A DNA stretch of 64,000 nt from a virus, in the IMG/VR virus record IMGVR_UViG_3300025108_000022, positions 38,648-102,647 of that record. One strand, 5' to 3'. The notes beneath the pieces are model-generated. The model had not been told where the DNA came from. It searched no databases and saw only the letters and a program-made list of their open reading frames with translations. Position numbers and translations under genes: made by a program. Shown piece by piece: positions 23,064-64,000 of this stretch (positions within the stretch are counted from its first letter, which is position 1; each line of letters opens with the position of its first letter).

Positions 23064-23067
23064 TAAC

Positions 23068-34546: not shown

Positions 34547-34704
34547 TGATTTGGAGTTTGACATTTGCGATAATAACAGTGGTGTGTATTTTTTTGATTT
34601 ATGAGGTATTCAACCTTGTCCAAATACCACCCGAAAACGACGGTGACGAAGAGGCTGAACGCCAAGCAATTATCGCTTCAATGTCCCGTCAGCATTTGAG
34701 GTGA
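34543..34704 (+). CDS. 53-aa single-pass membrane protein (not in ORF track)
   Basis: MMIWSLTFAIITVVCIFLIYEVFNLVQIPPENDGDEEAERQAIIASMSRQHLR; overlaps both neighbours (ATGA, GTGA). Confidence 0.6.
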   Translation: MMIWSLTFAIITVVCIFLIYEVFNLVQIPPENDGDEEAERQAIIASMSRQHLR

Positions 34705-38459: not shown

Positions 38460-39167
38460 TTAGGCATTGGTAATTTTGACTCTCTCTTTCACCACAGCCG
38501 ACTCGCTGTTTAGTGCCTCAACAATGGACTTAGCACGGACTTTGCCAATGCCTTCAAGTTTCATCAGTTCTTTCACAGAAGCCCCAGCAATTTCAGCGAT
38601 TGACCCGAAAGAAGACAGCAAACGCTTTGCGATAGCCTCACTACATCCGATACCACGGAGTCCGTCAATCCGTATATCCTCGCTTGAGGTGCGACGGAGT
38701 GTGCGGTATGTGCTAATGCTCCCAAGAGTGCCGTCCTTTTCACATCGTTTCACGATCCAGTAGGCGGCGGCGGAGGGAGTAGGGAATTGCATGATTGTTA
38801 AGTCAAAGTCAACATCAAGTCTTGACAATGAACCTAAGAACTGCGCTTGAATGCGGGCGTATGGTGTCCTGTTGCCTCTTCGCTTGAGGCTTGCCACATA
38901 GGCGTCCAGTTTGCCATGAATAACCAATATCATGCGGTTGTAGTTCTCATCCATGTTCTCCAATTGGTGAGCAAGGTGTCCACTTTGGAGGGATTGCATG
39001 TAGTCGGCAATACTCTTAGCCTCAATGCCGATTTGACCGTAGCAGTAGTCCGTGATCAAGTTTTGGTTAAGTTCCCACTTGATTTTTGCCTTGTCGGCTT
39101 GTTTTTTGACGGCTTCTTCAAGGCCAGATCGTTCACGATTGTCAATGTATAGGATTTTTTCAACCAT
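38460..39167 (-). CDS. ERCC4/XPF-family structure-specific nuclease with HhH motifs
   Basis: IDNRE, IGIEAKSIADY...SLQSGHL, C-terminal GIGCSEAIAKRLL and LEGIGKVRA. Confidence 0.85.
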   Translation of the reverse strand: MVEKILYIDNRERSGLEEAVKKQADKAKIKWELNQNLITDYCYGQIGIEAKSIADYMQSLQSGHLAHQLENMDENYNRMILVIHGKLDAYVASLKRRGNRTPYARIQAQFLGSLSRLDVDFDLTIMQFPTPSAAAYWIVKRCEKDGTLGSISTYRTLRRTSSEDIRIDGLRGIGCSEAIAKRLLSSFGSIAEIAGASVKELMKLEGIGKVRAKSIVEALNSESAVVKERVKITNA

Positions 39168-39816: not shown

Positions 39817-40890
39817 TCATACTCCGCCACTCCTGTCATAGAACGGGCAACGACCGATACAATACCCCTTTTGGTGAAGGGTTCGGCACGATGGTGATTT
39901 GTAGTAGCGATCCACATTATGGTTGATGTATGATACGGTGATGTCCTCTTTGTAGTCCGACCAATCCAAGTCCCGAATGAACGACACGATGGTGTCTTTG
40001 ATGCTACGGTTGGTGGTTGGCGATGAACGAGGGGGTCTTGCGAAGGAGCGTAGCCTGTCCTGCAAATACATGGCAAGATACACTCTCGCTTCGTGAGTAG
40101 GGTTGCTCCCCTTTTCACAGGCGGCTGACGCCAAGCAGGGGAGGATAGTGAGGTTGCCGACCTTCTTCATGTCCACATCCACAGGGTCAGCCTCAAATGG
40201 TGCATCGGGATCTCGCTTCTTGGTCTTGATAACCATACCTTTCGTGCCGTATGGCTTCATGCCCCCATGAGGCTCGTCGGCTTTGGCTATGACTGACGGC
40301 CAACCTGCTTCAAGGTCTTCGGTTGTCAGCGGCATACCCCATAGCCCCCGTTTGAAATTGTATGTGTTAGGAATGCGAATGTGCCTGTCGGGTCGGAATG
40401 AAACCACTGGATCGAGAGTGGACAAGTCCCACTTCTTAACCCAGCCGTCAATCATTTTACGACCAGTGAGCAAGAAGTCACCGAGTTCAATTGAAGTCGG
40501 TTCGTATGTTTTGTCAAGGCTGACCCAAATATGAACACCGCCTCCGGTGAACCACATAGCGTGCCGCCAGTCGTTTGACACAAGGTGCTGATGAAGCGCA
40601 TAGACTTCTTTGAAGCACCTGTCGCCCGCTTGGGCGGCTGATACACTCTCTTTCATGGCTCGTTCATAGTCCATGTCAATGACGAAGTGTGGGATCACAG
40701 CCGTGTTGTATTCACCACGGTTCCCTTTCGTCTTTAATTGACGGAAACCATAGACCGTAGTGGTGAGGTTGTCAGCACCGTTCGTGGCGGCGACATAGCG
40801 TTGCAGTTCGTCCATGTTATGCACCACTTTCCGCTTTCGCATATCCACCTCACGGGGAAAATGTCGGAACATGTGGGTGCTTCGTGTCAT
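39817..40890 (-). CDS. Archaeo-eukaryotic primase, PriS catalytic domain fused to PriL-like Fe-S domain
   Basis: FVIDMDY, FTGGGVHIW, RHIRIPNTYN; C-terminal LPCL...HEARVYL...SPSC...GYCIGRC. Confidence 0.85.
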   Translation of the reverse strand: MTRSTHMFRHFPREVDMRKRKVVHNMDELQRYVAATNGADNLTTTVYGFRQLKTKGNRGEYNTAVIPHFVIDMDYERAMKESVSAAQAGDRCFKEVYALHQHLVSNDWRHAMWFTGGGVHIWVSLDKTYEPTSIELGDFLLTGRKMIDGWVKKWDLSTLDPVVSFRPDRHIRIPNTYNFKRGLWGMPLTTEDLEAGWPSVIAKADEPHGGMKPYGTKGMVIKTKKRDPDAPFEADPVDVDMKKVGNLTILPCLASAACEKGSNPTHEARVYLAMYLQDRLRSFARPPRSSPTTNRSIKDTIVSFIRDLDWSDYKEDITVSYINHNVDRYYKSPSCRTLHQKGYCIGRCPFYDRSGGV

Positions 40891-40899
40891 AATACTCAC
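40877..40899. repeat. Direct repeat copy 1 flanking beta-MTase (21/23 identical to 42205-42227)
   Basis: GTGCTTCGTGTCATAATACTCAC vs GTGCTTCGTGTCATATTGCTCAC. Confidence 0.9.
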
Positions 40900-42218
40900 C
40901 ATTCAAAGAGCGACCTTTGCGCCCGAAGGACACGCACTTTTTGTTCCTCTATTTCAACCCAATGTGAAATCCGATGGCGAGCGATGCCGATGTATTCTTC
41001 TTCACGCTCAATGCCAATGAAATTGAAGCCCTCCACATTCGCCGCAATACCAGTAGTTCCACTCCCCATGAACGGATCTAAGACGACTCCGTTGGGAGGC
41101 GTGACGAGTCGGCATAGGTATTTCATCAAATTAACGGGCTTAACCGTTGGGTGTATGTTTTTTCGGTATTCAACTTTGTTGTGTAAAGACGAAGGCTTCG
41201 CTTCGTCGTTTTCGTGCTTGAAATCCTCACTCCCACGCTTCAATTCGGCTTTTGCTTGATTGCTCCACGCAACAAGTTGCGGTTCTTTGTCTTCCAAACC
41301 AAAGTCCTTTTCCGCTTTGCTCGCTTTAGCGCAGTAAAAGAATCGGGCGGCTGAACCATTTCCCATCTCGGTGCGAACCCCGTTGTCCACATTCCCCCAT
41401 CCCCCTTCGTAATGTTCACCCATAGCCACATTGGACTTCTTTGGGAACGCACCACCATTGGATTGAGGGAACAGGTTCACGACTTCATCCGAGCCATCGT
41501 GAATGAAATTGGCGGGGAATCTCCCTAAAGCGTGTTGATCCTGTGCTTCTTTGTTGTCTTTCATGCCAAAATTGACAACGGCATTCTCCCTGTTGTTGCT
41601 ACCAATGGATAATTTCTCGTTGGTGGCTATTCGGCAACCGTCAATGTTCAAACCGCCTGTGCCATGCTCAAGCACATTCTCAACGATAGTGCCGATAAGG
41701 GGCTTGCGGGCGACCACGATAGGCTCATGGGCAGGTTTGAGGGATGAACCCCACCCCTCCCATTTTTTCGCTTCGTCGGTTTGTGGGTTCTCCGCTGTTT
41801 TCTCTTTCATTTGAAATCCCAATGGCCCTTTCACTGTTCGTGATGAAGGGAGGACTTCTCCCTCAACATAGCGACCCGCTTTTTTGTCAATGTTCTTACT
41901 GACGGACTGACTTTTTGGGAAGCCCGACCCATAGACCCACATGATTTGATCACGGATTTCAAAGCCAGCGTCCTCTATGTTCACGGCCATGCGGTGATAT
42001 GTGCGAGAACCAGCAAATGATAGCAAATATCCTCCCGGTTTCAATACTCGGAAAGCCTCTTTCCACATCTCAACCGAAGGCACATCGTAGTCCCACTTCT
42101 TGCCCATGAAGGACAGTCCGTATGGTGGATCGGTGACGATTGAGTCAACGCTGTTATCCTCCATTTTCTCAAGTATAGCGATACAATCTCCGTGTATTAG
42201 TTCTGTGCTTCGTGTCAT
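40896..42218 (-). CDS. Beta-class N6-adenine/N4-cytosine DNA methyltransferase
   Basis: LIHGDC, DSIVTDPPY, HPTVKPV, VLDPFMGSGTTG, FIGIERE. Confidence 0.92.
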   Translation of the reverse strand: MTRSTELIHGDCIAILEKMEDNSVDSIVTDPPYGLSFMGKKWDYDVPSVEMWKEAFRVLKPGGYLLSFAGSRTYHRMAVNIEDAGFEIRDQIMWVYGSGFPKSQSVSKNIDKKAGRYVEGEVLPSSRTVKGPLGFQMKEKTAENPQTDEAKKWEGWGSSLKPAHEPIVVARKPLIGTIVENVLEHGTGGLNIDGCRIATNEKLSIGSNNRENAVVNFGMKDNKEAQDQHALGRFPANFIHDGSDEVVNLFPQSNGGAFPKKSNVAMGEHYEGGWGNVDNGVRTEMGNGSAARFFYCAKASKAEKDFGLEDKEPQLVAWSNQAKAELKRGSEDFKHENDEAKPSSLHNKVEYRKNIHPTVKPVNLMKYLCRLVTPPNGVVLDPFMGSGTTGIAANVEGFNFIGIEREEEYIGIARHRISHWVEIEEQKVRVLRAQRSLFEW

Positions 42219-42227
42219 ATTGCTCAC
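42205..42227. repeat. Direct repeat copy 2 flanking beta-MTase
   Basis: See 40877-40899. Confidence 0.9.
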
Positions 42228-43165
42228 TCCAAGTGTGTTTGATAACGAGGACAGAACTCTTTGAGAGCGCACCACGGGTCGCAAATTGAGTATTGGCGAC
42301 CGGGTGCAATAAGTGGGAACATGCTGATGTCGCCGTCGCCCTTGTAGCGTCGGTGCATACGGACGAGGTTTTGCATATCAGCCATCATCAAGCCCAGTTC
42401 TTTGACACGAACTGCCTCCACCAAGCGGAACATTTCAGCGTCTTCGGTATCGGTGCCCTTGACACCCTTAGTGTGATCCCACCCCCAGTGGGTGATTTGT
42501 GCCGAAGGGTCAGCCTTTCGCAACGCCCACACATAAAACGCCATTTCCTTTCTCATAGCCTCGTATTTGTATTTGGCTTCTTTCCAAGCACCTGTCTTGA
42601 GTTCGTGAATGTGTAGTGTCCCGTCGGGGTTAGTGTAAATGCGGTCAATAAAACCGTTGATATGTATGCGTTGGGGTTGTCCGTCAACCTTAATTTCAAC
42701 CACGCAATCAATCTCCATCTCGTTGCCAGTCGGCAGGAAGTGTTCGGGGTCGCTGTTGTTGAAGCGGTCAATCTCCTTCACACGGAAACGGTCAATGTGC
42801 AGATCTTCATCCAAAAAGAACGAATCCTGTGCCGAACGGATTTCCTTTGAAGTGGGGAAGCACTCACGGAAATAGCCATCAAGGTCAGTTTCGGCACTTG
42901 CCTTTTCAATATCCACCCTGTCATAGAATCCTTCAACAGCGTCGTGGACATTGGTGCCCCGTAGCATGTTGTCGTTCTGTGGTTCCTTCATACCAACGAT
43001 TCGTTTTAGGCCGTATTGTTGAGCGCAAAAGGTGGACTCGCCCAGCGAGGACTTGCTCATACGGAGAATGATGTTGTCGGGCATACCGGGGTGCCAATCA
43101 TAACATGAGAACAAGTCCTCATGGTTCGGCACAGGGTATGGGCGTGGTGGCTTATGGGTAATCAT
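42224..43165 (-). CDS. Cas4-like PD-(D/E)XK exonuclease (solo, replication-associated)
   Basis: N-terminal Cys (FCAQQY), RGTNVHD, GFIDRI, IHELKTG, EMAFY, C-terminal CDPWCALKEFCP. Confidence 0.8.
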   Translation of the reverse strand: MITHKPPRPYPVPNHEDLFSCYDWHPGMPDNIILRMSKSSLGESTFCAQQYGLKRIVGMKEPQNDNMLRGTNVHDAVEGFYDRVDIEKASAETDLDGYFRECFPTSKEIRSAQDSFFLDEDLHIDRFRVKEIDRFNNSDPEHFLPTGNEMEIDCVVEIKVDGQPQRIHINGFIDRIYTNPDGTLHIHELKTGAWKEAKYKYEAMRKEMAFYVWALRKADPSAQITHWGWDHTKGVKGTDTEDAEMFRLVEAVRVKELGLMMADMQNLVRMHRRYKGDGDISMFPLIAPGRQYSICDPWCALKEFCPRYQTHLE

Positions 43166-44122
43166 TCACCACCACTCCTTTGGTTCGGGCTGTTCGTCTT
43201 TCTTGACCCATTCAAATTGCTCAAGGACTGACTTGTTTCCGGGGTCATTGATTTCGCATGACATGGCATCGTCGCTGTGTAGTTCCTCTTCCCCTCCCCA
43301 CATTTCAACAATACCCTGTTGATCGTCGTGGTAAATGCTCACCGCATCACAGGAATTGCATTCAAATGGCCGTCGGCCTTCGGGCACGAATCCATCGGCG
43401 AACTTCTGTTCCATTTCAGCAAGGGTGTTGTATTGGTTCATCCCGTGCTTCATTGGGGAAACCTTTCGGCTTTCCTCGTCCCAGTGCTTGGCTTGCGCCC
43501 ATAGATCTGGATATTTTTTCCATAGAACATACCACGATGAAGTGGGTTGTTTGATGCAGTGAAAGCACCCCAAGCGTTGAAAATTGACATACAATGGGTT
43601 CACCATGTCAAGTTTGTCAAGGTATTTGAAAGCGTCTTCTTCTGTCCAGCCCCACTCAATGAGAGGATAACGAATGCCGTCCTCCTTTGCGGTCTTTGAC
43701 ACACGCCTCTTCTCGTCTATGGCGATACCGACATACTTGATCGTGCATTCCTTAGTCGCCCGTTGAAGAGGATAGAGTTTGGCTTCTCTCGCCCAGTAGC
43801 AAGGATAAACGATGAGGGGTGCCCCACGAACATTTCCTTCGTTTTTGCCCCTCGTCACCTTGCCATAGAACCACTCGTTCCATGACTTCTTTGAGAACAC
43901 ATGTTCAATGTGCAATCCTTTTTCGGGGTATTTTTCTTGAATGTATTTTTCAACATGCTTGATGTAGTCGTAAAGTTCGGGGAACTCAAAACCAGTGTCA
44001 GCGAATACAATGCGGTGAATCGGATAGTTTGGATCGTCCAGTTCAAGCATCCTCAATAACATAGCCGTTGAATCCTTTCCGCCGCTGAACGACACCATCG
44101 CAATATCCTGTTTCTCTTCCAT
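43166..44122 (-). CDS. PAPS reductase/DndC-like PP-loop protein
   Basis: VSFSGGKDSTAML, FADTGFEFPE, RYPLIEWGW, RLGCFHC. Confidence 0.85.
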   Translation of the reverse strand: MEEKQDIAMVSFSGGKDSTAMLLRMLELDDPNYPIHRIVFADTGFEFPELYDYIKHVEKYIQEKYPEKGLHIEHVFSKKSWNEWFYGKVTRGKNEGNVRGAPLIVYPCYWAREAKLYPLQRATKECTIKYVGIAIDEKRRVSKTAKEDGIRYPLIEWGWTEEDAFKYLDKLDMVNPLYVNFQRLGCFHCIKQPTSSWYVLWKKYPDLWAQAKHWDEESRKVSPMKHGMNQYNTLAEMEQKFADGFVPEGRRPFECNSCDAVSIYHDDQQGIVEMWGGEEELHSDDAMSCEINDPGNKSVLEQFEWVKKDEQPEPKEWW

Positions 44123-46405: not shown

Positions 46406-47202
46406 GCCGATGCCCCGCCTTCTTCTTGGCGGGGAGCGATAACGGCTGTTGTTCCAAAATCACCGTCGGGTGATTCGTGGCGAATGAGCAAGGGGCTGTC
46501 GTTGCCTCCGTGCAAATAGACAGTCCCATTCCCCGGCATAGCCTTGAGAGCGTCCATTAGCCACTTTCCAAACCAATTGAGAACACCTTCGCTTTCATCA
46601 GCGAGGTTGTTTGTCAATGGTTCAAGTGTTGATTCCATGCGGATTGAATCACGCTTGACGCTAAGGGTCAGCCCAGCGACATTTGATTCAAGACAGAATA
46701 GCGCACCGTTCTGTATGGATTTCCCAGTGTTTCGCATTTGTTGAAAACGCTGTCCTTCAAACGATTGAGCGAAGGTCAGTTCACCCGAACCGAACTTGTT
46801 GAAGTCGTTGGCTCTTGAATCATCAATCAGTTTCACGACTTGTTCAACGCCAGCCTGTGAAGAGGCCGAATTGACCGACGGCATAGTGAAGGAAGTGCTT
46901 GAGCCAGCGACATGGATCTTGCCATCGTCGTGAAGAACAATTTTCACTTCTTCGTTTCCAATGCCACATTCCTTGATGAGTGAAGTGAAGGTGGATAATT
47001 GGCCGAGCGCAATTGACCCAGCGTCAACACATCCCTCTCCTTCACGGAAAGAAGTGTGCCGTTGAATGAAATACGCTTTGTCAAGAGTTCCTGCGGAACC
47101 CAAGCCTTCTTCACTGACATTGACGACCAAATCATCCATGCCCTCAAAGCCCTTGAGGAAACCCAGCAGGTTGTGTTGAAGCATACGGAAGCCGACCATC
47201 AA
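46402..47202 (-). CDS. PCNA-like sliding clamp
   Basis: About 266 aa adjacent to PolB; C-terminal DSPLLI...TAVIAPR typical of PCNA. Confidence 0.7.
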   Translation of the reverse strand: MMVGFRMLQHNLLGFLKGFEGMDDLVVNVSEEGLGSAGTLDKAYFIQRHTSFREGEGCVDAGSIALGQLSTFTSLIKECGIGNEEVKIVLHDDGKIHVAGSSTSFTMPSVNSASSQAGVEQVVKLIDDSRANDFNKFGSGELTFAQSFEGQRFQQMRNTGKSIQNGALFCLESNVAGLTLSVKRDSIRMESTLEPLTNNLADESEGVLNWFGKWLMDALKAMPGNGTVYLHGGNDSPLLIRHESPDGDFGTTAVIAPRQEEGGASA

Positions 47203-48401
47203 GCATCACCTCTTGGGACATTGAAGTCGCCAGCGGAGATCTTAGGCCATCCATGCCAAACACCACCGTCGTCGTTCCTCTCAAAGAGCAGGACACGACC
47301 CGACGCTTGGAGTGAAGTGCGGTCAGCGATAATCACAGCGTAGCCACGGACAACACCAGTGAGTTCACCGGATTCGTTGCGTTCCTCTTCAAGTTCAGTG
47401 TGAATGACTTGTTGCAGGTGCCCTTCTGTGCCCTTGAGCCACTTCGGGGTGTCTTGCCCAGCAAGTTCGTTGCCCGACGAGTCGTAGCCCGGTTTCATGT
47501 GGGTAATGACATAGCAGTGAACGCCACCACGACATAGTTCACGGAGAGCGACCATAGCCGTTTGATAGCGAGTAGCACGAATGTTCCAATTGAAGCGGCC
47601 AATTTGAGTGGTGGCCTTCTTGCCCGAAACAGCGATACCGTCAACACCAAGATCCAAATCATCAACCTTCATGCAGGTTTCAGTGATATGTAGCCAATGG
47701 TCGGCTCCATCAAACACCACAGTCTTGAGGTATGGTTTTGGCATCTTGCCGTGTTCAGCGAAGTATTCATTCTGTGCCTCCATTTGAGCCTGTGCGGTCT
47801 TGAGGATGTCCACAGTTTGTTGAAATGTTGCTGGGAAATCGTATGGGACACGACTGTCACCATAATTGAATACCCACGGATTGAGAACGACGAGGTTTTC
47901 AGCCTTGTCAGCGTGGTGAGCCGCCTTCGTAGTTTCCCCACCGAGATCGAAGTCCAAGTGCCAAATCTCGGCACCGTTTTTGACTTCTTGTGGAGTGAGG
48001 CTGTCAAGCACCATACCAGTCTTGCCGGTCTTTGGTGCCCCTGCGATACCACACATAACGAATGCGGGTGGTGCCTTGATAACACGACGAGCGTTGCGAA
48101 TCATGTTAGCAATTGTCGGGTTGACTCTTGACAGGTGGTTTGCGGTGGCCGGTGGAGAAGGCTTCTTGGCCTTCTTTGGAGCAGGTGCGGGTGGTGCCTC
48201 ATCAACAGGTTCCTCCATCTCCGGTTCTTCGTGTTGAACAACAGGTGCTTCATCAACCAGTGCCTCAATAGGAATGTCTTTCATTTCCTTCTTCGGTGCA
48301 GGTTTTGGTGCTGGGGTCTTCTTAGATCCGCCAGCCTTCTTGGTCGGTGGTTCGTAATTGCCCTTCTTTTCCTTGAAGCCGTCTAAGAATCCTGTTCCCA
48401 T
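47199..48401 (-). CDS. RecA-superfamily ATPase (RadA/Sak4-like recombinase)
   Basis: Walker A GAPKTGKT, LDFDLG, Walker B TVVFDG, YVITH; Lys/Pro-rich disordered N-terminus. Confidence 0.7.
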   Translation of the reverse strand: MGTGFLDGFKEKKGNYEPPTKKAGGSKKTPAPKPAPKKEMKDIPIEALVDEAPVVQHEEPEMEEPVDEAPPAPAPKKAKKPSPPATANHLSRVNPTIANMIRNARRVIKAPPAFVMCGIAGAPKTGKTGMVLDSLTPQEVKNGAEIWHLDFDLGGETTKAAHHADKAENLVVLNPWVFNYGDSRVPYDFPATFQQTVDILKTAQAQMEAQNEYFAEHGKMPKPYLKTVVFDGADHWLHITETCMKVDDLDLGVDGIAVSGKKATTQIGRFNWNIRATRYQTAMVALRELCRGGVHCYVITHMKPGYDSSGNELAGQDTPKWLKGTEGHLQQVIHTELEEERNESGELTGVVRGYAVIIADRTSLQASGRVLLFERNDDGGVWHGWPKISAGDFNVPRGDA

Positions 48402-49741
48402 CAGTAATCACCTCCGGCACTGAAACCGTCAAGGTTGCCCAAATCGTTGCTGGACGCACTTGGCTTCTTTGCAGGAATTGACTTGTGAGGGACGGCATAG
48501 ATACCGTGTGCTTGCACCTTGACGACTTCATCGCCGTCTTGGTTGGTGTAAGACTCGGTGCGACCGACAACCCAAACACGGGAACCCTTTGCGAATGGGA
48601 GCCATTCGCCCGCCTTGAGGACGGAGAGAGCGTTGTGGTTTTCCTTTACCGTTCCCGACACACCAATGCCGATACGGGCGTTGGGGTTTTCACGGCGGAG
48701 AACTTGAGTGCTGATAGACAACCAGTAATCACGGCCTGTTGGATCCCATTGGGACTCACGGCCTTCGTGGTTGATGTCCATAACACCACCAACGATGCAG
48801 ACCATTGGGCCGTCATAGCGTTGGACACCGTTGCGGTCAGTGTATGACTCACGGCGGTTGTCAAGGTGGTGTGAGAGCAAATCCTTCACATTCACTGCGG
48901 CGTCGCCAGTAGTGGTGAGGTATTGTTCCGGCTTGAAGAGGTTGGTTGCAGTGTCCCGCTTCTTTCCTTCGGGCACCCAGTCCAAACCATAGGTCGCACT
49001 GGTGTTGCTGATGGAGAGTGTTGGGCCAGCCCCGTTGTAGCCTTCGGGGTCAAAGTTCCCCTTGACGGTGATCGGTTGCCACAGGTTCCAGTCGTGCGTA
49101 GCACCTTCAAAGGCACCCTCAACAGTGATGAGCATTGGGCCTTCTTCAAGGAACTTGTCTTTGGAGTTCCCATTGAACGCCCAAATGGACTTCATGGCCG
49201 TAGCACGCTGTGGGGTGTTGTCAGCCTTGAGCATACAGATTGAAAGTTTCTCGTTGAGAGGGATAACCCAGTTCGGGTTCTCGTCAGCCGAGTCCTTTGA
49301 CACGAATGTCCCAGTGCTGTGTTCGGCTCGCCAAACACCGTCAGCACGGAAAGCACGACCAATACCGACTTTGTTGCCGTTGTATTGGAAACCGTTGTTG
49401 ATTGCACCCGACAGGTCAGCAGTGGCGATGTCAATTGCCGCCTCACGCTTGCGCTTCATCAAGTCAAAGCGTCGGTCAAATCCGATGAACATACCGACCC
49501 ATTCTTCGCCAGATCCGCCACCGCCACCGCCACTTGGGCGGTTAGCGCACACGAACATGTCAGCGAAGTCGTTGTAGTCGTCGTCGTCCAAGCCTTGCGC
49601 TGAACCACCACTGGCTTCCCACATGTCGGGGAATGTTTCGTTCATCCACGAACCAAATGAGGCAAGTGCTTCTTCCGCACCCACACCAAGTATTTTAGCC
49701 GCTTCATCAATGCAATTGTTTCCGATTTCTCTTTCGCTCAT
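48401..49741 (-). CDS. Putative RPA/SSB-like OB-fold ssDNA-binding protein
   Basis: Between RFC and recombinase; OB-like C-terminus (KGSRVWVVGRT...VQAHGIY), acidic aromatic tail. Confidence 0.5.
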   Translation of the reverse strand: MSEREIGNNCIDEAAKILGVGAEEALASFGSWMNETFPDMWEASGGSAQGLDDDDYNDFADMFVCANRPSGGGGGGSGEEWVGMFIGFDRRFDLMKRKREAAIDIATADLSGAINNGFQYNGNKVGIGRAFRADGVWRAEHSTGTFVSKDSADENPNWVIPLNEKLSICMLKADNTPQRATAMKSIWAFNGNSKDKFLEEGPMLITVEGAFEGATHDWNLWQPITVKGNFDPEGYNGAGPTLSISNTSATYGLDWVPEGKKRDTATNLFKPEQYLTTTGDAAVNVKDLLSHHLDNRRESYTDRNGVQRYDGPMVCIVGGVMDINHEGRESQWDPTGRDYWLSISTQVLRRENPNARIGIGVSGTVKENHNALSVLKAGEWLPFAKGSRVWVVGRTESYTNQDGDEVVKVQAHGIYAVPHKSIPAKKPSASSNDLGNLDGFSAGGDY

Positions 49742-58156: not shown

Positions 58157-58311
58157 CAAGCATCACCATCACAGTCGCAATTGCACGCCCAGCACTGGCC
58201 GCACGGGCCACCGCATGTGTCAGATCCAGTATTCATTTCACCACAGGATTTGCATTTCCTGTCCTTCGTGGTGTAGTATGGGTCTTCGTCCATAGGAATG
58301 TCAGCGGTCAT
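58156..58311 (-). CDS. 51-aa Cys-rich micro-protein (not in ORF track)
   Basis: MTADIPMDEDPYYTTKDRKCKSCGEMNTGSDTCGGPCGQCWACNCDCDGDA; coupled to both neighbours. Confidence 0.55.
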   Translation of the reverse strand: MTADIPMDEDPYYTTKDRKCKSCGEMNTGSDTCGGPCGQCWACNCDCDGDA

Positions 58312-58577
58312 TCAAACACCACCTGTTCAAGAAAGAACTCTCCCTCGTTCGTGTCAAATTGCGTGATACAATTAGACTCAAGGAACTCTTTGATGGTTTG
58401 AGGGCCACCCCAACCTCGCCCTTCGGCTTGGCATTTTAGGTTGAACTCAACCTGCTTCTTGATTTTACCTCGCAGGTATTTCTCCGCATCGGCGTATCGC
58501 TTGAACAGTGCGACAGGCGGGGCATACTTTTGGGTGTAGCCTGATCCAGCCGTCTTGATAACAACCCAACGCTTCAT
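58308..58577 (-). CDS. Hypothetical protein
   Basis: 89 aa, operon order. Confidence 0.45.
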   Translation of the reverse strand: MKRWVVIKTAGSGYTQKYAPPVALFKRYADAEKYLRGKIKKQVEFNLKCQAEGRGWGGPQTIKEFLESNCITQFDTNEGEFFLEQVVFE

Positions 58578-58769: not shown

Positions 58770-59293
58770 ACTATCACCGCCTCCATGTTTCGCCACCAAT
58801 TAGGGGCAGGAGTTCCCTTGTCCCAGCGAGCAAAGCGTTGCTTGTCATGGAAGTAAAAGTCCCTGTATGCTTGAACACGGTCGGGTTGTTTGTATTCATC
58901 GGGCATAGCCAGCGGCACTGGTGTCATTTGACCGCCAGTCAAGTCGGGAATGTGTTCAGCCATTTGTCGCAAATGACGGATGGCGTCAGTGCAACCGTGT
59001 TCCTTGCCGTAGCGGATCTGGTTTTGCTTAAGTAGCGACTCGGCCAGTTCACACAGCCATTCGTAGTTCGCCCGTGTCAAGCCGACCCACAGCGTGCTGG
59101 GGTGGTGCGGGTGAGCCTTGCCCGAATAGGGGGTCTTGCCGTCGGCACGCATAGGCATGAGGTCAGCGGAGCCTGTGTGCTTGAAGAGAGCCGTTGAGAG
59201 CATCTGTGCGGCCTCAACAATCATTTTCATGTGCTTGTCGCAGTGCATGATTCCCGCCAGCCAAGCCAGCCTGTGGAGAAAGAATATGTTCAT
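58766..59293 (-). CDS. Pyrimidine dimer DNA glycosylase/endonuclease V (DenV-like) family protein
   Basis: MNIFFL, HCDKH..KMIVEAAQMLST, HPSTLW, NYEWL, YGKEH, PLAMPDEYK, AYRDFY..DK. Confidence 0.8.
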   Translation of the reverse strand: MNIFFLHRLAWLAGIMHCDKHMKMIVEAAQMLSTALFKHTGSADLMPMRADGKTPYSGKAHPHHPSTLWVGLTRANYEWLCELAESLLKQNQIRYGKEHGCTDAIRHLRQMAEHIPDLTGGQMTPVPLAMPDEYKQPDRVQAYRDFYFHDKQRFARWDKGTPAPNWWRNMEAVIV

Positions 59294-60699
59294 TGTATCA
59301 CCTCGTTTGTTTGTGTTGAATCACCCACAGACACACAGTCAGCGGGGACAACCTTGAGCCGAACTGCTTGGCTAAGAAGGTATTCTTTGGAGCATCGTGG
59401 ATCGAAGCGTGCCCGTGTCTTGCGGTGAAGCGCACAGCGTAAATCCTCCACGCTGATGTCCTCCCATGTGAGGGTTGGCTTGGGTTCCTCCGGCTGGGGG
59501 ATGGTGGCCTTCTCCTTGTCAGCGAACGGCTTCACTGTGTGCATGTTGCGTGATAGGTATTCGTCCATGCGAACCAGCCCCTCCCAGCGAGCGTCGCTGG
59601 TGGGGTTGTCCCAATTGTATGGGTTCCAGTCGGCTTTACAATCCCCAAGAATCACTTCATACCACGCTTCCTCCTTCGTGGTGAGTAGCGAGGTGGAGAG
59701 GGAGTCGTGAGTCAGTATTGAATTGAACACATGCTCGGTGGCTTCACGCCAGCAACCCATGTTCAGATCTGTGAACTTGCTGTTATCATCAAAAGTGTCG
59801 TCGCCGTGAACTTCCCAGCAACGGGTGATAATCGCTTTGATGTATCGCTTGGCGTGCGAGCGTTCCTTCTTCACCAATTCCTGTGGAGTCGGCTCGGCTT
59901 TTGGTGTTGAAGCATGGGGCTGGAAGAATCTGTTAATGCGAAGTGGTTCGTTGTTGTTCAATTTGTTCTCAATGATGCGCTGAACTTTCTTGCTGGGGCC
60001 GTAGCCTTTGTTGCTGGCGTAGCCCATGTTGAACGGGTTGCATTCCTTCTCGGTGAGGCCAAACCACGGTTGCATCAGTTTGAGCATCATGCGGTTGAAC
60101 ATGATGTCGTGTGGGCGTCGCTTGCCGTTCCTGCCGTGGTGTTCTTTGTAGTGTGTCAATTGGAACACATGGATCATCTCATGGAGTAGCACTTTGAGGG
60201 CACGGGCAGTGGCCTCTCCTTCATCACCATTGACTGACATGGTGATACCGTATTTGGGGCCACCCCGTGCGCTCTTGGTTCGTGCGTCTTTGGCGAACTG
60301 GATTCTGATCGAGCCACGCTGGCGAACACGCTTGATGGATTGGCGAGCCTGTGTCTTGTCAGTCTTTCGCCACAAATCACGGGCACATTCGTTGGTGACG
60401 GTGGCGATGTGCTTTTGATTGGTTCGGGTTCTGTATGACGGCCTCTCTCCTTCACGGGTGGCGTATTCAAACGCCTCATGGGCGATTGCTCCTATGTCCG
60501 TGTTCATGCACACATGGCGTGCAAAGTCCATGATGTTGATTCGCTGATCTGGATTTGCTGGGTGCTTCAATCTGTATTTGTCAATGTCATACCACTGGGT
60601 CGTCATTCGCTTGTCCTCATGTGAATTAGGGGTCGGGCGTATATCAACATGCTTGCCGAATATCCTCTCTATCTCTTGAATTAGATTTGGCATGTTCAT
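59290..60699 (-). CDS. SprT-like zinc metallopeptidase domain protein
   Basis: VLLHEMIH...RRPHDIMF (HExxH plus downstream His); start ATG 60699 after AGGAGG. Confidence 0.65.
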   Translation of the reverse strand: MNMPNLIQEIERIFGKHVDIRPTPNSHEDKRMTTQWYDIDKYRLKHPANPDQRINIMDFARHVCMNTDIGAIAHEAFEYATREGERPSYRTRTNQKHIATVTNECARDLWRKTDKTQARQSIKRVRQRGSIRIQFAKDARTKSARGGPKYGITMSVNGDEGEATARALKVLLHEMIHVFQLTHYKEHHGRNGKRRPHDIMFNRMMLKLMQPWFGLTEKECNPFNMGYASNKGYGPSKKVQRIIENKLNNNEPLRINRFFQPHASTPKAEPTPQELVKKERSHAKRYIKAIITRCWEVHGDDTFDDNSKFTDLNMGCWREATEHVFNSILTHDSLSTSLLTTKEEAWYEVILGDCKADWNPYNWDNPTSDARWEGLVRMDEYLSRNMHTVKPFADKEKATIPQPEEPKPTLTWEDISVEDLRCALHRKTRARFDPRCSKEYLLSQAVRLKVVPADCVSVGDSTQTNEVIQ

Positions 60700-60971
60700 G
60701 CCTCCTTTTGCTGGATGAGTCCTTCGGCACGAATCACCTGTGTGATTTCCTGTGGCCGTTGTCCTGTGAATGTGAATGTTCCTGTTTCGTGATGAATAAC
60801 CCACGAAGAACGGGGGTGAAAAACGCCGTCGTAGCGACGCTGTGGTGGACGATAATGGATCAGTGATGGTGGAGAGCCTGTGGCTTGCTTGATGGCTTGC
60901 CACAGCATACGCACCTTGCGCTGTCCCTGCTTGGGCGATTCCTCGTAGCGTGCTTCAATGAACCCTGTCAT
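60696..60971 (-). CDS. Hypothetical protein
   Basis: 91 aa after GGAGG. Confidence 0.45.
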   Translation of the reverse strand: MTGFIEARYEESPKQGQRKVRMLWQAIKQATGSPPSLIHYRPPQRRYDGVFHPRSSWVIHHETGTFTFTGQRPQEITQVIRAEGLIQQKEA

Positions 60972-61261
60972 GCTTCGTCCTCCGCTGTGTTGATGAGGAC
61001 AGTGAACTCCACGCCGTTTTCCCGTAATAGTCGCATCACGGTTTGTGGTGTAGCACCAGCCAAAGACCAGTCCAAGAACCATGTCTTAGCAGATGGCTGG
61101 CCTTGCTTGATAGCAAAACCAGTGTCAAAGGATATGCCGTTCTCTTGAAGGTGTTCATGCACCTTAGCCATGCGAGGCGTGTGCAATTCCTCTTGCTGGA
61201 TTCGCACTTCAAAGGAGAGCAGATCTGCGGTGCTTCCCACAGGTTGCGGTGAATCACTCAT
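60968..61261 (-). CDS. Hypothetical protein
   Basis: 97 aa, coupled. Confidence 0.45.
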   Translation of the reverse strand: MSDSPQPVGSTADLLSFEVRIQQEELHTPRMAKVHEHLQENGISFDTGFAIKQGQPSAKTWFLDWSLAGATPQTVMRLLRENGVEFTVLINTAEDEA

Positions 61262-61446
61262 TGAACTCCCTCCCCGTCCACATCGTCCATCGTGGCTGGT
61301 CGGATGTCAAGACCCCACGGGGACTCACAGCCCCCACAGAAGAGAACAGGCGTGTTGCCCGATGGTTGATAGATTTTCAGTCGTTCGCCACAGCCTTTAC
61401 AGCATGGGTATTCGTTGAATCCGTGAATCGTCCACTGTTTGCTCAT
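61258..61446 (-). CDS. Zn-finger micro-protein
   Basis: CCKGC...FCGGC. Confidence 0.5.
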   Translation of the reverse strand: MSKQWTIHGFNEYPCCKGCGERLKIYQPSGNTPVLFCGGCESPWGLDIRPATMDDVDGEGVQ

Positions 61447-61985
61447 GCGCTCACCTCGTTCGGTGTGCAACCGTAGCGGATCTGGTCAATCAATATGTCA
61501 ATGCGCTTGTCCTCGTCCTCTCGTTCGTGGTCGTAAATGCACCACACAGCATAGACTGTGCTTGAACCGAGGTCAGCGTCGTCTATGATGTATTGAGAGG
61601 GCTTCTCGTCATACTGGGAGAGTCCTGTCATGTATGCGAATCGGTCAGCACTGTCAAGTGGGACAACAATGCGTGATGAACCCACAGCGAATGGTGGAGA
61701 GGCATTCGTGTATTCCTCTCTCCAATTTTTCCTTTCCTGTTCAGTCAGTCGTTCAACGCAAATCGTGGAGCCATGAATGTCCTTCATCATCACTTCACGA
61801 TTGTTGGCCTTTTGGTGCATGTCCTTGAGCATGTTTTCCCAGCCAGCAATCGTGTTGTTGATCTGCTGGTATTGGTCTTCGGTCAGTTCTCCTGTCGCCT
61901 TCATGGCGTGTGCTGAACAGCACGCCGCCTCAAGGTCGGATAGCGTTTGACTCATCTCGTCAGTCATTCGTGTTGAATCGCTCAT
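61443..61985 (-). CDS. Hypothetical protein
   Basis: 180 aa bounded by the 17-nt repeats. Confidence 0.55.
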   Translation of the reverse strand: MSDSTRMTDEMSQTLSDLEAACCSAHAMKATGELTEDQYQQINNTIAGWENMLKDMHQKANNREVMMKDIHGSTICVERLTEQERKNWREEYTNASPPFAVGSSRIVVPLDSADRFAYMTGLSQYDEKPSQYIIDDADLGSSTVYAVWCIYDHEREDEDKRIDILIDQIRYGCTPNEVSA

Positions 61986-62089
61986 GCGCTCACCTCCACC
62001 ACTTCAAAGAATCCTTTCCATTCCTCAAGCAAGATCTTGAGTTCTGTTTCGTTTAGGTTTTCATGCCAATTGATTTCGTATTTTTTCAT
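61982..62089 (-). CDS. 35-aa hypothetical micro-protein
   Basis: MKKYEINW...EVSA; GGAGG SD; ATGA overlaps. Confidence 0.45.
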   Translation of the reverse strand: MKKYEINWHENLNETELKILLEEWKGFFEVVEVSA

Positions 62090-62199
62090 GCTGATTCCTC
62101 CTTGTTGTAGCAATCCGATGAACAGTATGTTGCACCAGTATGCGGAGTCAGTGGTTTGTAGCAAACAACACAGTTCCCAAGTTCGGGTTTGAATGTCAT
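62086..62199 (-). CDS. 37-aa Zn-finger micro-protein (not in ORF track)
   Basis: MTFKPELGNCVVCYKPLTPHTGATYCSSDCYNKEESA. Confidence 0.55.
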   Translation of the reverse strand: MTFKPELGNCVVCYKPLTPHTGATYCSSDCYNKEESA

Positions 62200-62411
62200 G
62201 CTGATTCCTCCAAGCGGTTTTGCCAGTGCTTGACACCAGCGTCGTCCACATTGTATGAACTCATTCCTGCAAGGCAGATCGTGAGTTCATTCTTTGTATG
62301 CTGGGCGATACCACAGCCACAGAAGCGGCAAATGTCGCCTTCGGTCGGTTCCTTGAACTTCACCACATCAAGTGGGAGCAGTGCGTATTTTTTTCTATAA
62401 GAGTCGGTCAT
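62196..62411 (-). CDS. Small Cys/His protein
   Basis: 71 aa; CRFCGC...H...C; ends EESA. Confidence 0.45.
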   Translation of the reverse strand: MTDSYRKKYALLPLDVVKFKEPTEGDICRFCGCGIAQHTKNELTICLAGMSSYNVDDAGVKHWQNRLEESA

Positions 62412-62451
62412 TTTGATTCCCCGTTGTTCAGTCCACACAGTCCGGCCTATA

Positions 62452-62832
62452 TCAAGCCTCGCAATACCCATGCTTGAGCAATTTGGCGTGCCGATAATGG
62501 TTGTCCATGTCCTTTGCTGTCCACATTTGACACGGTGTAATGACGACCTCTTGTGGGTGTGGATCGTTGGAGTCCTTGAGCGTGCATTGATAGCCAGCCA
62601 TGACAACCTTCTTGACTCGTTGTGCCGTCGCTGGCGAGTCTGCTGGGAACTCCCAACCATTGTGGTTAAAGTCCCCATTGTCTGTGTCAAAGCGCAGGGC
62701 ACCATGATAGCCCAAGTCCTCGTCGTCGCCAGCAAAGCGTCCACGGAGGACGAACAAATACTTGCGTGCCGCATCCCATGTGCTGAAACACTGGATGCCG
62801 TAGCCGTCGCTGATGGTGAAGATCTGCCTCAT
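62452..62832 (-). CDS. Hypothetical protein
   Basis: 126 aa from ATG 62832. Confidence 0.45.
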   Translation of the reverse strand: MRQIFTISDGYGIQCFSTWDAARKYLFVLRGRFAGDDEDLGYHGALRFDTDNGDFNHNGWEFPADSPATAQRVKKVVMAGYQCTLKDSNDPHPQEVVITPCQMWTAKDMDNHYRHAKLLKHGYCEA

Positions 62833-63137
62833 GCTGATTCCTCCATTTGGCGTTCCTCTTCGGCAATCCATTCATCAGCAACCTCTCGGTGCTTTGCGGT
62901 CAATTGCCAAGCACCACCGGGCATAGTGATTGTTTCACCGGGGAGTTCAATGACATGATCGACCCTCTCCAAGTAGCCAGCATGACCCAGCCACCAGTTC
63001 AAATCCTTCATGGTTGAGCCGTGATTGACGCACTGTTGCCAGTGCCCCAGCACAGCGGCCTCAAAGGCACGCAAGCGTGCGACTTCGTTGATTGAAGGCA
63101 CATCACCAGTGTTCAGATCTGCGTTGTCGCTCATCAA
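62829..63137 (-). CDS. Hypothetical protein
   Basis: 102 aa; ends EESA. Confidence 0.45.
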   Translation of the reverse strand: MMSDNADLNTGDVPSINEVARLRAFEAAVLGHWQQCVNHGSTMKDLNWWLGHAGYLERVDHVIELPGETITMPGGAWQLTAKHREVADEWIAEEERQMEESA

Positions 63138-63460
63138 ACCTCGCCTCCTTCAAAGCCAGCCGTGAGGCCAGCAGTTCGTGGCAAACGGTGGGTTTCCTGC
63201 GCTTCGGAGTCAGCCAGTCGGCGAGCCATGCGCTCGTCCATCGCTCGCTGGGATTCGTAGCCCAGTGCTTCGGCACGGGCTTCACAGCGAGGACAGTATC
63301 GTGTTGGGTGCGACCATATTCCTGCCTGTGTGCGAATGGATTCACGCTGGGCGTCAAGCATCTCGCTGATGTATGCGTCAGCGTCAACGGCGAACACATG
63401 ACGATCACATGCGGAAGCACCACATTGGATGTGGATCGAACCGACGATGCTCAAGCCCAT
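63134..63460 (-). CDS. Hypothetical Zn-binding protein
   Basis: CGASAC...YCPRC. Confidence 0.45.
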   Translation of the reverse strand: MGLSIVGSIHIQCGASACDRHVFAVDADAYISEMLDAQRESIRTQAGIWSHPTRYCPRCEARAEALGYESQRAMDERMARRLADSEAQETHRLPRTAGLTAGFEGGEV

Positions 63461-63873
63461 TCCTCCTTGAAGGACGCACTGCCGAAGGCACCACTGGCCT
63501 CAACATCGTCATTAACGACATCAAGTTCAATGGTGAAGTCCTCGGCGACAATGGTGGTGTTGTCGTCGGTGGTTGGTGGTGAAACGCTGGGTTCCTGTGC
63601 CGCCAGTTCCTCCGCTGATGGTTCACCGACACCGACCTCAAGTCGGCGTAGATCGTGCTTGATTTGGGTTGCTTTGATTGCTTGAACATCCCACTTGGCG
63701 ACCTCTCGCATTTCAGTGAGAAGGGCGTTGTAGTCCTCTTCACGGCACGGCTTTGTGTCCTTGATGAACTGGGTGTAGTCAGCGGCGAAACGCTCGCCAC
63801 CAGCGGCCACACAGGCCACCATTCCGCCAGCCTTCATGCCGGGTGGGAGTGGTGTGTATGGCAAGATGCCCAC
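63451..63873 (-). CDS. Hypothetical acidic protein
   Basis: 140 aa, operon order. Confidence 0.45.
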   Translation of the reverse strand: MGILPYTPLPPGMKAGGMVACVAAGGERFAADYTQFIKDTKPCREEDYNALLTEMREVAKWDVQAIKATQIKHDLRRLEVGVGEPSAEELAAQEPSVSPPTTDDNTTIVAEDFTIELDVVNDDVEASGAFGSASFKEEWA

Positions 63874-64000
63874 GATTCGTGCTGGCTTGCTGGCGAAGTT
63901 CTCGGCGTGTCGCTTCTTGATGAGTTCACCAAGTGTGCCGGTGAGTGCTGACCCAGCGTCATTGAGGACAGCAGGGACTCGGCGAAAGCAGATCTGGACT

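What the first reader, a model, noticed from the sequence alone, without database searches (positions are those of the whole stretch)
61441..62844. Early-region genes are delimited by identical 16-17-nt SD/stop/start junction repeats, forming an apparently integrase-free cassette array
Seen: GAGGTGAGCGCATGAGC (minus strand) brackets exactly one gene (61443-61985). GGAGGAATCAGCATGA occurs three times and brackets a 37-aa Zn finger and a two-gene block. Five genes therefore end EESA* or EVSA*. The identity extends through the spacer, beyond what an SD needs. Inference: with the two replication-module cassettes, this suggests a general gene-shuffling system in which translational-coupling junctions double as recombination sites, so any gain or loss stays expressed. 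The RecA/Sak4-like ATPase plus SSB (47199-49741) is a candidate catalyst. I do not know of a description of this in archaeal viruses but cannot search.
Basis: partly seen in the sequence, partly recalled or inferred. Interest (0 to 1): 0.8.

Follow-up and report, generated by a model that had tools for sequence, protein, structure and literature searches.

The report
Gene-junction repeats that shuffle viral genes
In this uncultured marine tailed virus, probably of archaea, the short stretch that ends one small gene and starts the next is repeated between unrelated genes, and related viruses have gained, lost, swapped and moved whole genes at these stretches; this is a clean natural example of an old idea about how virus genomes become mosaics.

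Summary
On the minus strand, a 16-mer (ribosome-binding site, 7-nt spacer, ATGA stop/start overlap) occurs three times (62086, 62196, 62829). A 17-mer occurs twice (61441, 61980). Together they bracket gene F (37 aa), the D-E pair and gene H (180 aa). Identical spacers greatly exceed what SD plus ATGA constraints predict: 4 identical pairs against 0.04 expected, 0 of 20000 shuffles.

Fourteen related contigs show a hyperplastic early region.
- F is absent in three relatives, which keep a single copy of the 16-mer.
- 67 of 88 homology ends lie within 20 nt of a start codon (10.6% expected).
- Genes E and O sit in other positions in some relatives.
- The same spacer ends seven unrelated gene families.
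- Hybrid gene tails and N-termini mark crossovers inside short homologies.
- The methylase and PAPS-reductase-like genes are also exact cassettes with one-copy empty sites.

I found no integrase, no homing nuclease and no attC-like hairpin. The 400-aa protein has a RecA/Rad51 fold.

Best reading: short-homology recombination at coupling junctions, not a dedicated site-specific system. The closest known cases are T4-type PeSL shuffling and the "linker" hypothesis. This scan has reported similar junction repeats on other DNA. Verdict: a new variant of a known kind.

The parts
62829..62844 (-). 16-nt junction repeat, copy 1 (end of gene C, SD, spacer, ATGA start of D)
   Evidence: Exact match; C>D junction in the gene model.
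62196..62211 (-). 16-nt junction repeat, copy 2 (end of E, start of F)
   Evidence: Exact match. E keeps this tail in L148, L149 and L154, where other genes follow it.
62086..62101 (-). 16-nt junction repeat, copy 3 (end of F, start of G)
   Evidence: Exact match. L148, L149 and L150 have E joined directly to G. L148 and L149 keep one exact copy of the 16-mer; L150's copy has one mismatch.
61980..61996 (-). 17-nt junction repeat, copy 1 (end of G, start of H)
   Evidence: Exact match. It co-varies with the H tail across relatives.
61441..61457 (-). 17-nt junction repeat, copy 2 (end of H, start of I)
   Evidence: Exact match. The same H tail precedes x1 in L146 and u3 in L152.
62086..62199 (-). 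Gene F, 37-aa zinc-finger-like cassette, found only in the window
   Evidence: ORF; weak zf-HIT hit, E 0.004; absent from L148, L149 and L150.
61443..61985 (-). Gene H, 180 aa, no known family; a unit found in several contexts
   Evidence: 95.7% identical to L146 over exactly 61998-61442, with non-homologous flanks. Contexts: G>H>I, E>H>x1, u2>H>u3, B>H>u4.
62196..62832 (-). Genes D (126 aa) and E (71 aa), the two-gene block between 16-mer copies 1 and 2; the only uncoupled junction (40-nt gap) lies between them
   Evidence: E occurs without D in L154 and L143.
62829..63134 (-). Gene C (101 aa), a cassette absent from L146, L147 and L152
   Evidence: In L148, C is bracketed by a 17-nt identical junction repeat.
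60696..60718 (-). Hybrid tail of gene K at the K>L junction: footprint of loss of the zinc-ribbon gene x4
   Evidence: The window's K ends with the tail that x4 carries in L112, L113 and L149. The crossover lies in a 6-nt patch just before the SD. L152 shows an independent second deletion joint.
61232..61261 (-). Hybrid N-terminus of gene J (x1-like first codons joined to the J body): footprint of loss of x1-x2
   Evidence: L149 and L150 carry I>x1>x2>J; the crossover lies in an 8-nt shared patch in the first codons.
58308..58577 (-). Gene O (89 aa), translocated in a relative
   Evidence: In L149 it lies between J and K with its own tail. It is absent from the N>P junction of L146, L150, L112, L113 and L153.
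40896..42218 (-). N6/N4 DNA methylase cassette. Flanking direct repeats: perfect 15-mers at 42205-42219 and 40877-40891, about 24 nt in all, covering the SD, the start and the first four codons
   Evidence: Pfam N6_N4_Mtase. Exact empty sites with one repeat copy in L119, L117 and L118; other inserts at the same site in L116, L123 and L132.
43166..44122 (-). PAPS-reductase-like cassette ending in a copy of the PolB tail (10-mers at 44128-44137 and 43168-43177)
   Evidence: PHROG 424. Absent in L123, L128, L129 and L132, where PolB is followed directly by the Cas4-like gene.
47199..48401 (-). RecA/Rad51-fold P-loop ATPase (Sak4-type), candidate recombinase
   Evidence: Walker A motif. AF2 model pLDDT 82.7. 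Foldseek top hits are RAD51 paralogues, RAD51, RecA and RadA, E about 1e-8. 17 of 40 homologues hit PF13479.
48401..49741 (-).
   Evidence: No Pfam, PHROG, NCBIfam or PDB hit. Only a sub-threshold language-model neighbour with SSB (0.81).
42224..43165 (-). Cas4/PD-(D/E)XK-like exonuclease, possible resection function
   Evidence: PHROG exonuclease families; weak Cas4/AddB hits.
38460..39167 (-). ERCC4 (XPF/Hef-type) nuclease with helix-hairpin-helix domain, possible flap removal
   Evidence: Pfam ERCC4 3.9e-15 and HHH_5 4e-11.

Best explanation
The minus-strand early region is a hyperplastic string of small, translationally coupled genes. Nearly every gene ends in a junction made of a GGAGG-type ribosome-binding site, a 7-8-nt spacer and an ATGA stop/start overlap. 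Many junctions are followed by similar first codons (Met-Ser-Asp).

These junctions are short patches of DNA homology shared by unrelated genes. Recombination between two patches has two outcomes. Within one genome it deletes the gene between them. Between co-infecting relatives it inserts, replaces or moves a gene. Because the crossover lies inside the junction, every product keeps an intact upstream tail, a ribosome-binding site and a start, so the new arrangement stays expressed.

The process is general short-homology recombination: single-strand annealing, relaxed homologous recombination or template switching. It is probably helped by the virus's own RecA/Rad51-fold ATPase, Cas4-like exonuclease and ERCC4 flap nuclease. 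It is not site-specific recombination.

Shown here: the repeats, their non-random excess, the breakpoints, the one-copy empty sites, the hybrid tails, the absence of an integrase, and the RecA fold.

Inferred: that homology causes the events rather than merely surviving selection, and which enzymes act.
For: 1. Repeats are exact and far above SD+ATGA expectation.

2. Gene maps of 14 relatives show combinatorial presence, absence and order of small genes. 67 of 88 homology ends lie within 20 nt of a start codon, against 10.6% expected.

3. Filled sites and one-copy empty sites:
- F: window versus L148, L149 and L150.
- x2: bracketed by an identical 17-mer in L152; absent in L146, which keeps x2's tail on x1.
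- C: bracketed by a 17-mer in L148; absent in L146, L147 and L152.
- Methylase: absent in L119, L117 and L118.
- PAPS-like gene: absent in L123, L128, L129 and L132.

4. Crossover footprints. K carries x4's tail and J carries x1's first codons in the window. Two different K>L deletion joints exist, one in the window and one in L152.

5. One spacer sits on the tails of 7 unrelated gene families at 9 distinct gene pairs. The motif is read in different frames (LEESA, WRNDE, WRNQA), so it is conserved as DNA or RNA, not as peptide.

6. G and H tails co-vary between genomes.

7. The nearest relative changes gene by gene: H is 95.7% identical to L146 while its neighbours are 83-87%.

8. No integrase, transposase or homing nuclease domains. 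No hairpin at the junctions. RecA/Rad51 fold for 47199-48401. ERCC4 and Cas4-like nucleases present.
Against: - The evidence is comparative and correlational. No recombination event was observed directly.
- Breakpoint counts are not independent events, because relatives share ancestry.
- Several events show only 4-8 nt of shared sequence at the flanks (O, x5, C in the window). Selection for intact coupled genes would enforce much of that by itself.
- Junctions flanking one gene are only modestly more alike than non-adjacent junctions (12.4 versus 11.6 of 25 positions, p = 0.003; runs >=12 nt in 3.4% versus 1.1%, p = 0.06).
- No empty site (G joined to I) was found for the H-bracketing 17-mer itself.
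- Sixteen nt is below the efficient length reported for Red-beta-type annealing (about 30 bp, PMC3945230).
Confidence: 0.7

Rival explanations
1. Homology-independent (illegitimate) recombination occurs everywhere. Selection keeps only products with intact, coupled genes. Junction similarity is a by-product of SD and ATGA constraints (the Hendrix-type view of phage mosaicism).
For: Some events share only ATGA or 5-8 nt at their flanks (O, x5, C). Tails mostly travel with their own gene (J, O, K, x2 keep their tails in different contexts). The adjacent-versus-non-adjacent difference in junction similarity is modest.
Against: Identical 7-nt spacers exceed the constrained null about 100-fold. The same spacer sits on 7 unrelated gene families. 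15-17-nt perfect flanks surround F, H, C (L148), x2 (L152) and the methylase, with one-copy empty sites. Hybrid tails place crossovers in shared patches.
Confidence: 0.13
2. The identical junctions are kept by selection for an RNA-level function in early genes, such as an optimal re-initiation site or the target of an early translational repressor or RNase (as RegA and RegB act on T4 early messages). Recombination there is incidental.
For: The motif is confined to the early region. It is conserved regardless of reading frame. Part of the 17-mer is an extended SD match (sequence; one search shows many extended SD matches of the same kind).
Against: E's tail differs in L146, L147, L143 and L150 without loss of the gene, so the exact sequence is not required. 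This reading does not explain the one-copy empty sites, the hybrid tails or the co-variation of the two H flanks. It can coexist with the main explanation.
Confidence: 0.1
3. A dedicated site-specific cassette system (integron-like), with an unrecognised recombinase that cuts at the 16-mer.
For: One-orientation array of promoterless small genes, each with a conserved 3' element. Single-gene gain and loss.
Against: No tyrosine or serine recombinase or transposase domain in any ORF scanned. No hairpin or inverted repeat at the junctions. Crossover points vary: before the SD, in the SD, at ATGA, and in the first codons. Junction sequences are diverse.
Confidence: 0.04
4. Assembly artefact: metagenome assemblers joined different strains at the repeats.
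For: All the sequences are metagenomic contigs.
Against: The repeats are 16-17 nt, shorter than usual assembly k-mers. The same arrangements recur in independent samples: E>G in L148, L149 and L150; E>H>x1 in L146 and L147; K>x4>L in five contigs.
Confidence: 0.02

Closest known systems
PeSL (promoter-early stem-loop) cassettes in hyperplastic regions of T4-type phages (Arbiol et al. 2010, PMC2839356; Comeau et al. 2014, PMC4122927)
   Same: A short conserved expression signal is repeated at the borders of small non-essential ORFans. Close relatives differ by single genes flanked by two copies where the other genome has one copy. Recombination between copies is proposed to delete, insert and move genes while supplying their expression signals. 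No integrase is involved.
   Different: PeSLs are about 100-bp intergenic promoter-plus-terminator modules, that is, transcription signals. Here the element is 16-24 nt, lies inside coding sequence (the last codons of the upstream gene), and supplies translation signals (SD, stop/start overlap). No stem-loop is present. Mini-circles were shown for PeSLs and were not testable here. The host domain is probably Archaea.
Linker / boundary-sequence hypothesis of modular phage evolution (Susskind and Botstein 1978; boundary sequences in lambdoid phages, Clark et al. 2001; both recalled from my own knowledge, not read here)
   Same: Short conserved sequences at gene borders are proposed as sites of homologous exchange between otherwise unrelated modules.
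   Different: In lambdoid phages such sequences are sporadic and their role is disputed. Here one junction family recurs on at least seven unrelated genes, with filled and empty alleles among close relatives.
Relaxed homologous recombination by phage recombinases (Martinsohn et al. 2008, PMC2327257; De Paepe et al. 2014, PMC3945230)
   Same: Phage-encoded annealing or RecA-like recombinases create mosaics from short, diverged homologies. This virus encodes a RecA-fold, Sak4-type ATPase.
   Different: Those experiments used Rad52-like proteins and homologies of tens to hundreds of bp in E. coli phages. Activity on 16-nt patches, and activity of this protein, are untested.
Integron gene-cassette arrays
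   Same: One-orientation array of promoterless genes, each with a conserved 3' element. Single-cassette gain and loss.
   Different: No IntI, no attI, no attC hairpin. Crossover positions vary. Expression is by translational coupling rather than from a common promoter alone.

Membership tests
Integron | IntI tyrosine recombinase next to the array | tested here: not met
   No Phage_integrase or other recombinase domain in the ORFs of >=150 aa scanned on both strands, nor in the small early genes. The 3215-aa ORF (22987-32634) was not scanned.
Integron | attC: imperfect inverted repeat that folds as a single-strand hairpin at the 3' end of each cassette | tested here: not met
   81-nt windows around the five repeats fold no better than shuffles (z = -0.35, -1.96, -0.95, +1.0, -0.72).
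Integron | Array of promoterless cassettes in one orientation with single-cassette polymorphism | tested here: met
PeSL-type modular shuffling | Conserved repeated motif at ORFan borders, with two copies around a gene and one copy at the empty site in a close relative | tested here: met
   F (window versus L148, L149, L150), x2 (L152 versus L146), methylase (window versus L119, L117, L118).
PeSL-type modular shuffling | The motif is an early promoter plus a stem-loop terminator | tested here: not met
   The motif is SD + spacer + ATGA inside coding sequence. No stem-loop. No promoter-like or terminator-like site at the repeats (the scan does not cover archaeal promoters).
PeSL-type modular shuffling | Excised mini-circles carrying one motif copy | not testable with these tools
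Homing-endonuclease-driven gene mobility | HNH, GIY-YIG or LAGLIDADG nuclease encoded in or beside the mobile gene | tested here: not met
   No such domain in window genes B-K and O, or in cassettes x1, x2, x4, x5, x7, x9, u1, u3, u4 and u7 of relatives.
Sak4 / AAA_24 RecA-like recombinases (for 47199-48401) | RecA-fold P-loop core | tested here: met
   AF2 pLDDT 82.7. Foldseek top hits are RAD51 paralogues, RAD51, DMC1, RadA and RecA, E about 1e-8 to 1e-7, TM 0.40-0.55 on the target. Walker A motif GxxxxGKT.
Sak4 / AAA_24 RecA-like recombinases (for 47199-48401) | Match to Pfam PF13479 | tested here: inconclusive
   The protein itself has no Pfam hit. 17 of 40 profile-search homologues match PF13479, best E 4e-10.
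Sak4 / AAA_24 RecA-like recombinases (for 47199-48401) | Single-strand annealing stimulated by a cognate SSB | not testable with these tools
   Biochemical property. The neighbouring 446-aa protein has no SSB hit.

The most novel reading that the evidence does not exclude
The junctions are not just accidental homology. They are a maintained, standardised connector: a 3' tail carrying SD, spacer and ATGA, plus a common Met-Ser-Asp start. It lets this lineage of marine, probably archaeal, viruses plug any small gene into any coupled junction. Excised one-junction circles or co-infection would act as the vehicle, and the virus's RecA-fold ATPase, Cas4-like and ERCC4 nucleases would act as the machinery. 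That would be a translation-level, integrase-free counterpart of integron cassettes.
Probability: 0.2. Interest if true: 0.8.

Novelty: new variant of a known kind. Interest (0 to 1): 0.58.

Why it matters
Whether phage mosaics arise by homology-guided exchange at short border sequences, or by random joining followed by selection, has been argued for decades.

This lineage offers an unusually clean natural data set:
- a family of 16-17-nt coupling junctions on unrelated genes;
- more than a dozen gene-precise gains, losses, swaps and moves among contigs that are about 80-96% identical;
- filled and one-copy empty alleles;
- hybrid tails that locate the crossovers.

It extends the PeSL idea from transcription signals to translation signals, and probably from bacterial to archaeal viruses. 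It also gives a simple rule for annotation: identical gene tails or first codons on unrelated small genes mark recombination seams, not protein motifs. Such junctions could serve as natural standard connectors for building coupled operons.

Tried and rejected
- **DNA search of 60000-64000 against named phages:** no match.
- **Gene H in IMG/VR:** no relative.
- **The 16-mer in IMG/VR:** only single, unrelated hits; not useful for finding relatives.
- **No whole genome is held for the window**.
- **First crude gene caller:** it mis-called D/E and was replaced by a codon-usage model.
- **First structure prediction of the 400-aa protein** (7-sequence alignment): failed, pLDDT 41.6. Sequence and profile searches of PDB, and Pfam scans of those 7 proteins, gave nothing. 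The 40-sequence alignment worked.
- **The 446-aa "SSB":** no support beyond one sub-threshold neighbour.
- **C-terminal peptide motif (EESA) as a tag:** rejected, because the same DNA motif is read in other frames.
- **Paralogy of the cassettes:** rejected, because all-against-all blastp joins none of C, E, F, G and H.
- **attC-like hairpins:** rejected.
- **Homing nucleases:** rejected.
Full report
**What the window is.** It is a tailed-virus contig. Late genes lie on the plus strand up to about 36 kb: prohead protease S78, an HK97-type capsid protein and large fibre-like proteins. One long minus-strand gene string runs from 64000 down to 36300. It holds the early genes, an SprT-like protein, an RFC-type clamp loader, family B polymerase, a PAPS-reductase-like gene, a Cas4-like nuclease, an N6/N4 methylase and an ERCC4-HhH nuclease. 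No whole genome is held for it. It has no DNA match among named phages. Its polymerase is closest, at about 24% identity, to those of haloarchaeal tailed viruses. All relatives come from marine metagenomes. A virus of marine archaea (magrovirus-like; PMC5434244 describes such viruses) is plausible but inferred.

**Observation.** All five repeat copies are exact and at the stated places. A codon-usage plus SD gene model gives a chain of genes A to W. In it, 29 of 41 starts overlap the previous stop as ATGA. The 17-mer brackets gene H. The 16-mer brackets gene F and the D-E pair. C, E, F, G and H end in EESA or EVSA. Identity through the spacer is not explained by SD and ATGA. Among the ten junctions with the same SD spacing, four pairs have identical 7-nt spacers, against 0.042 expected by column shuffling (0 of 20000). 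A codon-usage null gives 1.5e-4 per pair. Part of the 17-mer is an extended SD match, so its free content is only about six bases. The 16-mer triple has no such excuse.

**Relatives.** I obtained fourteen related stretches:
- nine marine metagenome contigs found with gene H (L146-L154);
- two IMG/VR contigs found with the SprT-like gene (L112, L113);
- three more distant 64-86-kb contigs (L143-L145).

Gene maps show a hyperplastic region.

| Contig | Gene order |
|---|---|
| Window | A B C D E F G H I J K L |
| L146 | A x7 B D E H x1 J K x4 L |
| L148 | A B C D E G H |
| L149 | E G H I x1 x2 J O K x4 L |
| L152 | A x7 B D u2 H u3 x1 x2 x5 K L |
| L154 | A B H u4 E u5 x1 J K |

Gene order changes as well as gene content. 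E follows H in L154. O lies between J and K in L149 but after N in the window. In the pairwise alignments, 67 of 88 internal homology ends lie within 20 nt of a start codon, where 10.6% is expected. These ends are not independent events. Even so, nearly every junction from A to R is a breakpoint in at least one relative.

**Filled and empty sites.** F is present only in the window. L148, L149 and L150 join E directly to G; L148 and L149 keep one exact copy of the 16-mer, and L150's copy has one mismatch. Identical junction repeats also bracket genes in relatives:
- C in L148 (17 nt);
- x2 in L152 (17 nt);
- u4-E in L154 (16 nt);
- a three-gene block in L143 (16 nt).

L146 lacks x2 and carries x2's tail on x1.

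**Crossover footprints**:
- The window's K ends with the tail that the zinc-ribbon gene x4 carries in five relatives. This is a deletion joint in a 6-nt patch just upstream of the SD.
- L152 lost the same gene through a different joint in the SD.
- The window's J starts with x1's first codons joined to the J body through an 8-nt patch. This marks loss of x1-x2.
- H and x1 share their first nine codons.

**Same pattern in the replication module.** Earlier notes on this window (e1-6021240, e1-6021241) proposed this, and I tested it. The methylase is flanked by a repeat of about 24 nt, 15 of them perfect, covering the SD, the start and the first four codons. It is exactly absent, with one repeat copy, in L119, L117 and L118. 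Other inserts replace it in L116, L123 and L132. The PAPS-reductase-like gene ends in a copy of the PolB tail. It is absent in L123, L128, L129 and L132, where PolB directly precedes the Cas4-like gene.

**Nature of the shared element.** One spacer sits on the tails of seven unrelated gene families at nine distinct gene pairs. The motif is read in different frames (LEESA, WRNDE, WRNQA), so it is conserved as nucleic acid and not as a peptide. The tails of G and H co-vary between genomes: one form in the window and L150, another in L148 and L149. H is 95.7% identical between the window and L146 over exactly the interval between the two 17-mers, while the neighbouring genes are absent or 83-87% identical. 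The nearest relative therefore changes gene by gene. On the other hand, tails mostly travel with their own gene. Some events share only ATGA or 5-8 nt. Adjacent junctions are only modestly more alike than non-adjacent ones.

**Machinery.** I found no integrase, transposase or homing nuclease domain in the window or in the relatives' cassettes, and no hairpin at the junctions. The 400-aa protein at 47199-48401 has a Walker A motif. Modelled with a 40-sequence alignment (pLDDT 82.7), it matches RAD51 paralogues, RAD51, RadA and RecA best. Of its 40 homologues, 17 hit PF13479, the Sak4-type family. The 446-aa neighbour cannot be called an SSB on the present evidence. A Cas4-like exonuclease and an ERCC4-HhH nuclease are present. 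Together these could carry out resection, annealing and flap removal, but that is inference.

**Conclusion.** The repeats are real and non-random, and they mark the seams of gene-precise gain, loss, swap and translocation. The best reading is short-homology recombination at translational-coupling junctions, which keeps every product expressed. This is analogous to PeSL-mediated shuffling in T4-type phages (PMC2839356) and to the old linker hypothesis, but it acts at translation signals and probably in an archaeal virus. It is not an integron-like site-specific system. This scan has reported similar junction repeats on other DNA. I did not test those reports, and they neither raise nor lower the present scores.

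Noticed in passing
window 47199-48401 (-): A protein with no Pfam, PHROG or NCBIfam hit is a RecA/Rad51-fold ATPase with a disordered, Lys/Pro-rich N-terminus of about 100 aa. 115 homologues are in the 50% representative library.
   Followed up: yes
window 38460-39167 (-): ERCC4 (XPF/Hef-type) nuclease with HhH2 domain, a typically archaeal/eukaryotic repair nuclease, encoded by the virus.
   Followed up: partly
window 62412-62451 (-) and the same place in L146-L152: The D>E junction is the only uncoupled junction in the early array. It is a 39-40-nt gap with a weak SD, conserved in all relatives that have D. D and E mostly travel together.
   Followed up: no
starts of H, J and C (window); x1, u2, u3, u4, u7 (relatives): Many unrelated small genes begin Met-Ser-Asp(-Ser) with near-identical DNA, so the shared junction extends 6-27 nt into the downstream gene.
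   Followed up: partly
L150:340-355: One base change in E's 16-mer creates an earlier stop, so E ends 2 nt before G's start instead of overlapping it. The exact junction sequence is therefore not obligatory.
   Followed up: no
L150:5202-5236 versus window 59289-59323: In L150 gene P carries a 35-nt copy of the SprT-like gene's tail in front of an extra 169-aa gene (u1). This is a junction copied to a second site together with a gene.
   Followed up: no
L143 (G001:C1:37000-45000): The 64-kb relative lacks the whole SprT-like to P block: K is followed by a unique gene and then Q.
   Followed up: no
L153:1871-3276: The SprT-like gene is called as two pieces (272 + 142 aa) in this contig. This is a possible frameshift or assembly error.
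   Followed up: no
window 22987-32634 (+): A 3215-aa ORF in the late region, presumably a fibre or tail protein. It was not scanned against Pfam.
   Followed up: no
window 34701-36089 (+) and 40896-42218 (-): Two DNA methylases, one D12-class Dam-like and one N6/N4 type. The second is a polymorphic cassette.
   Followed up: partly
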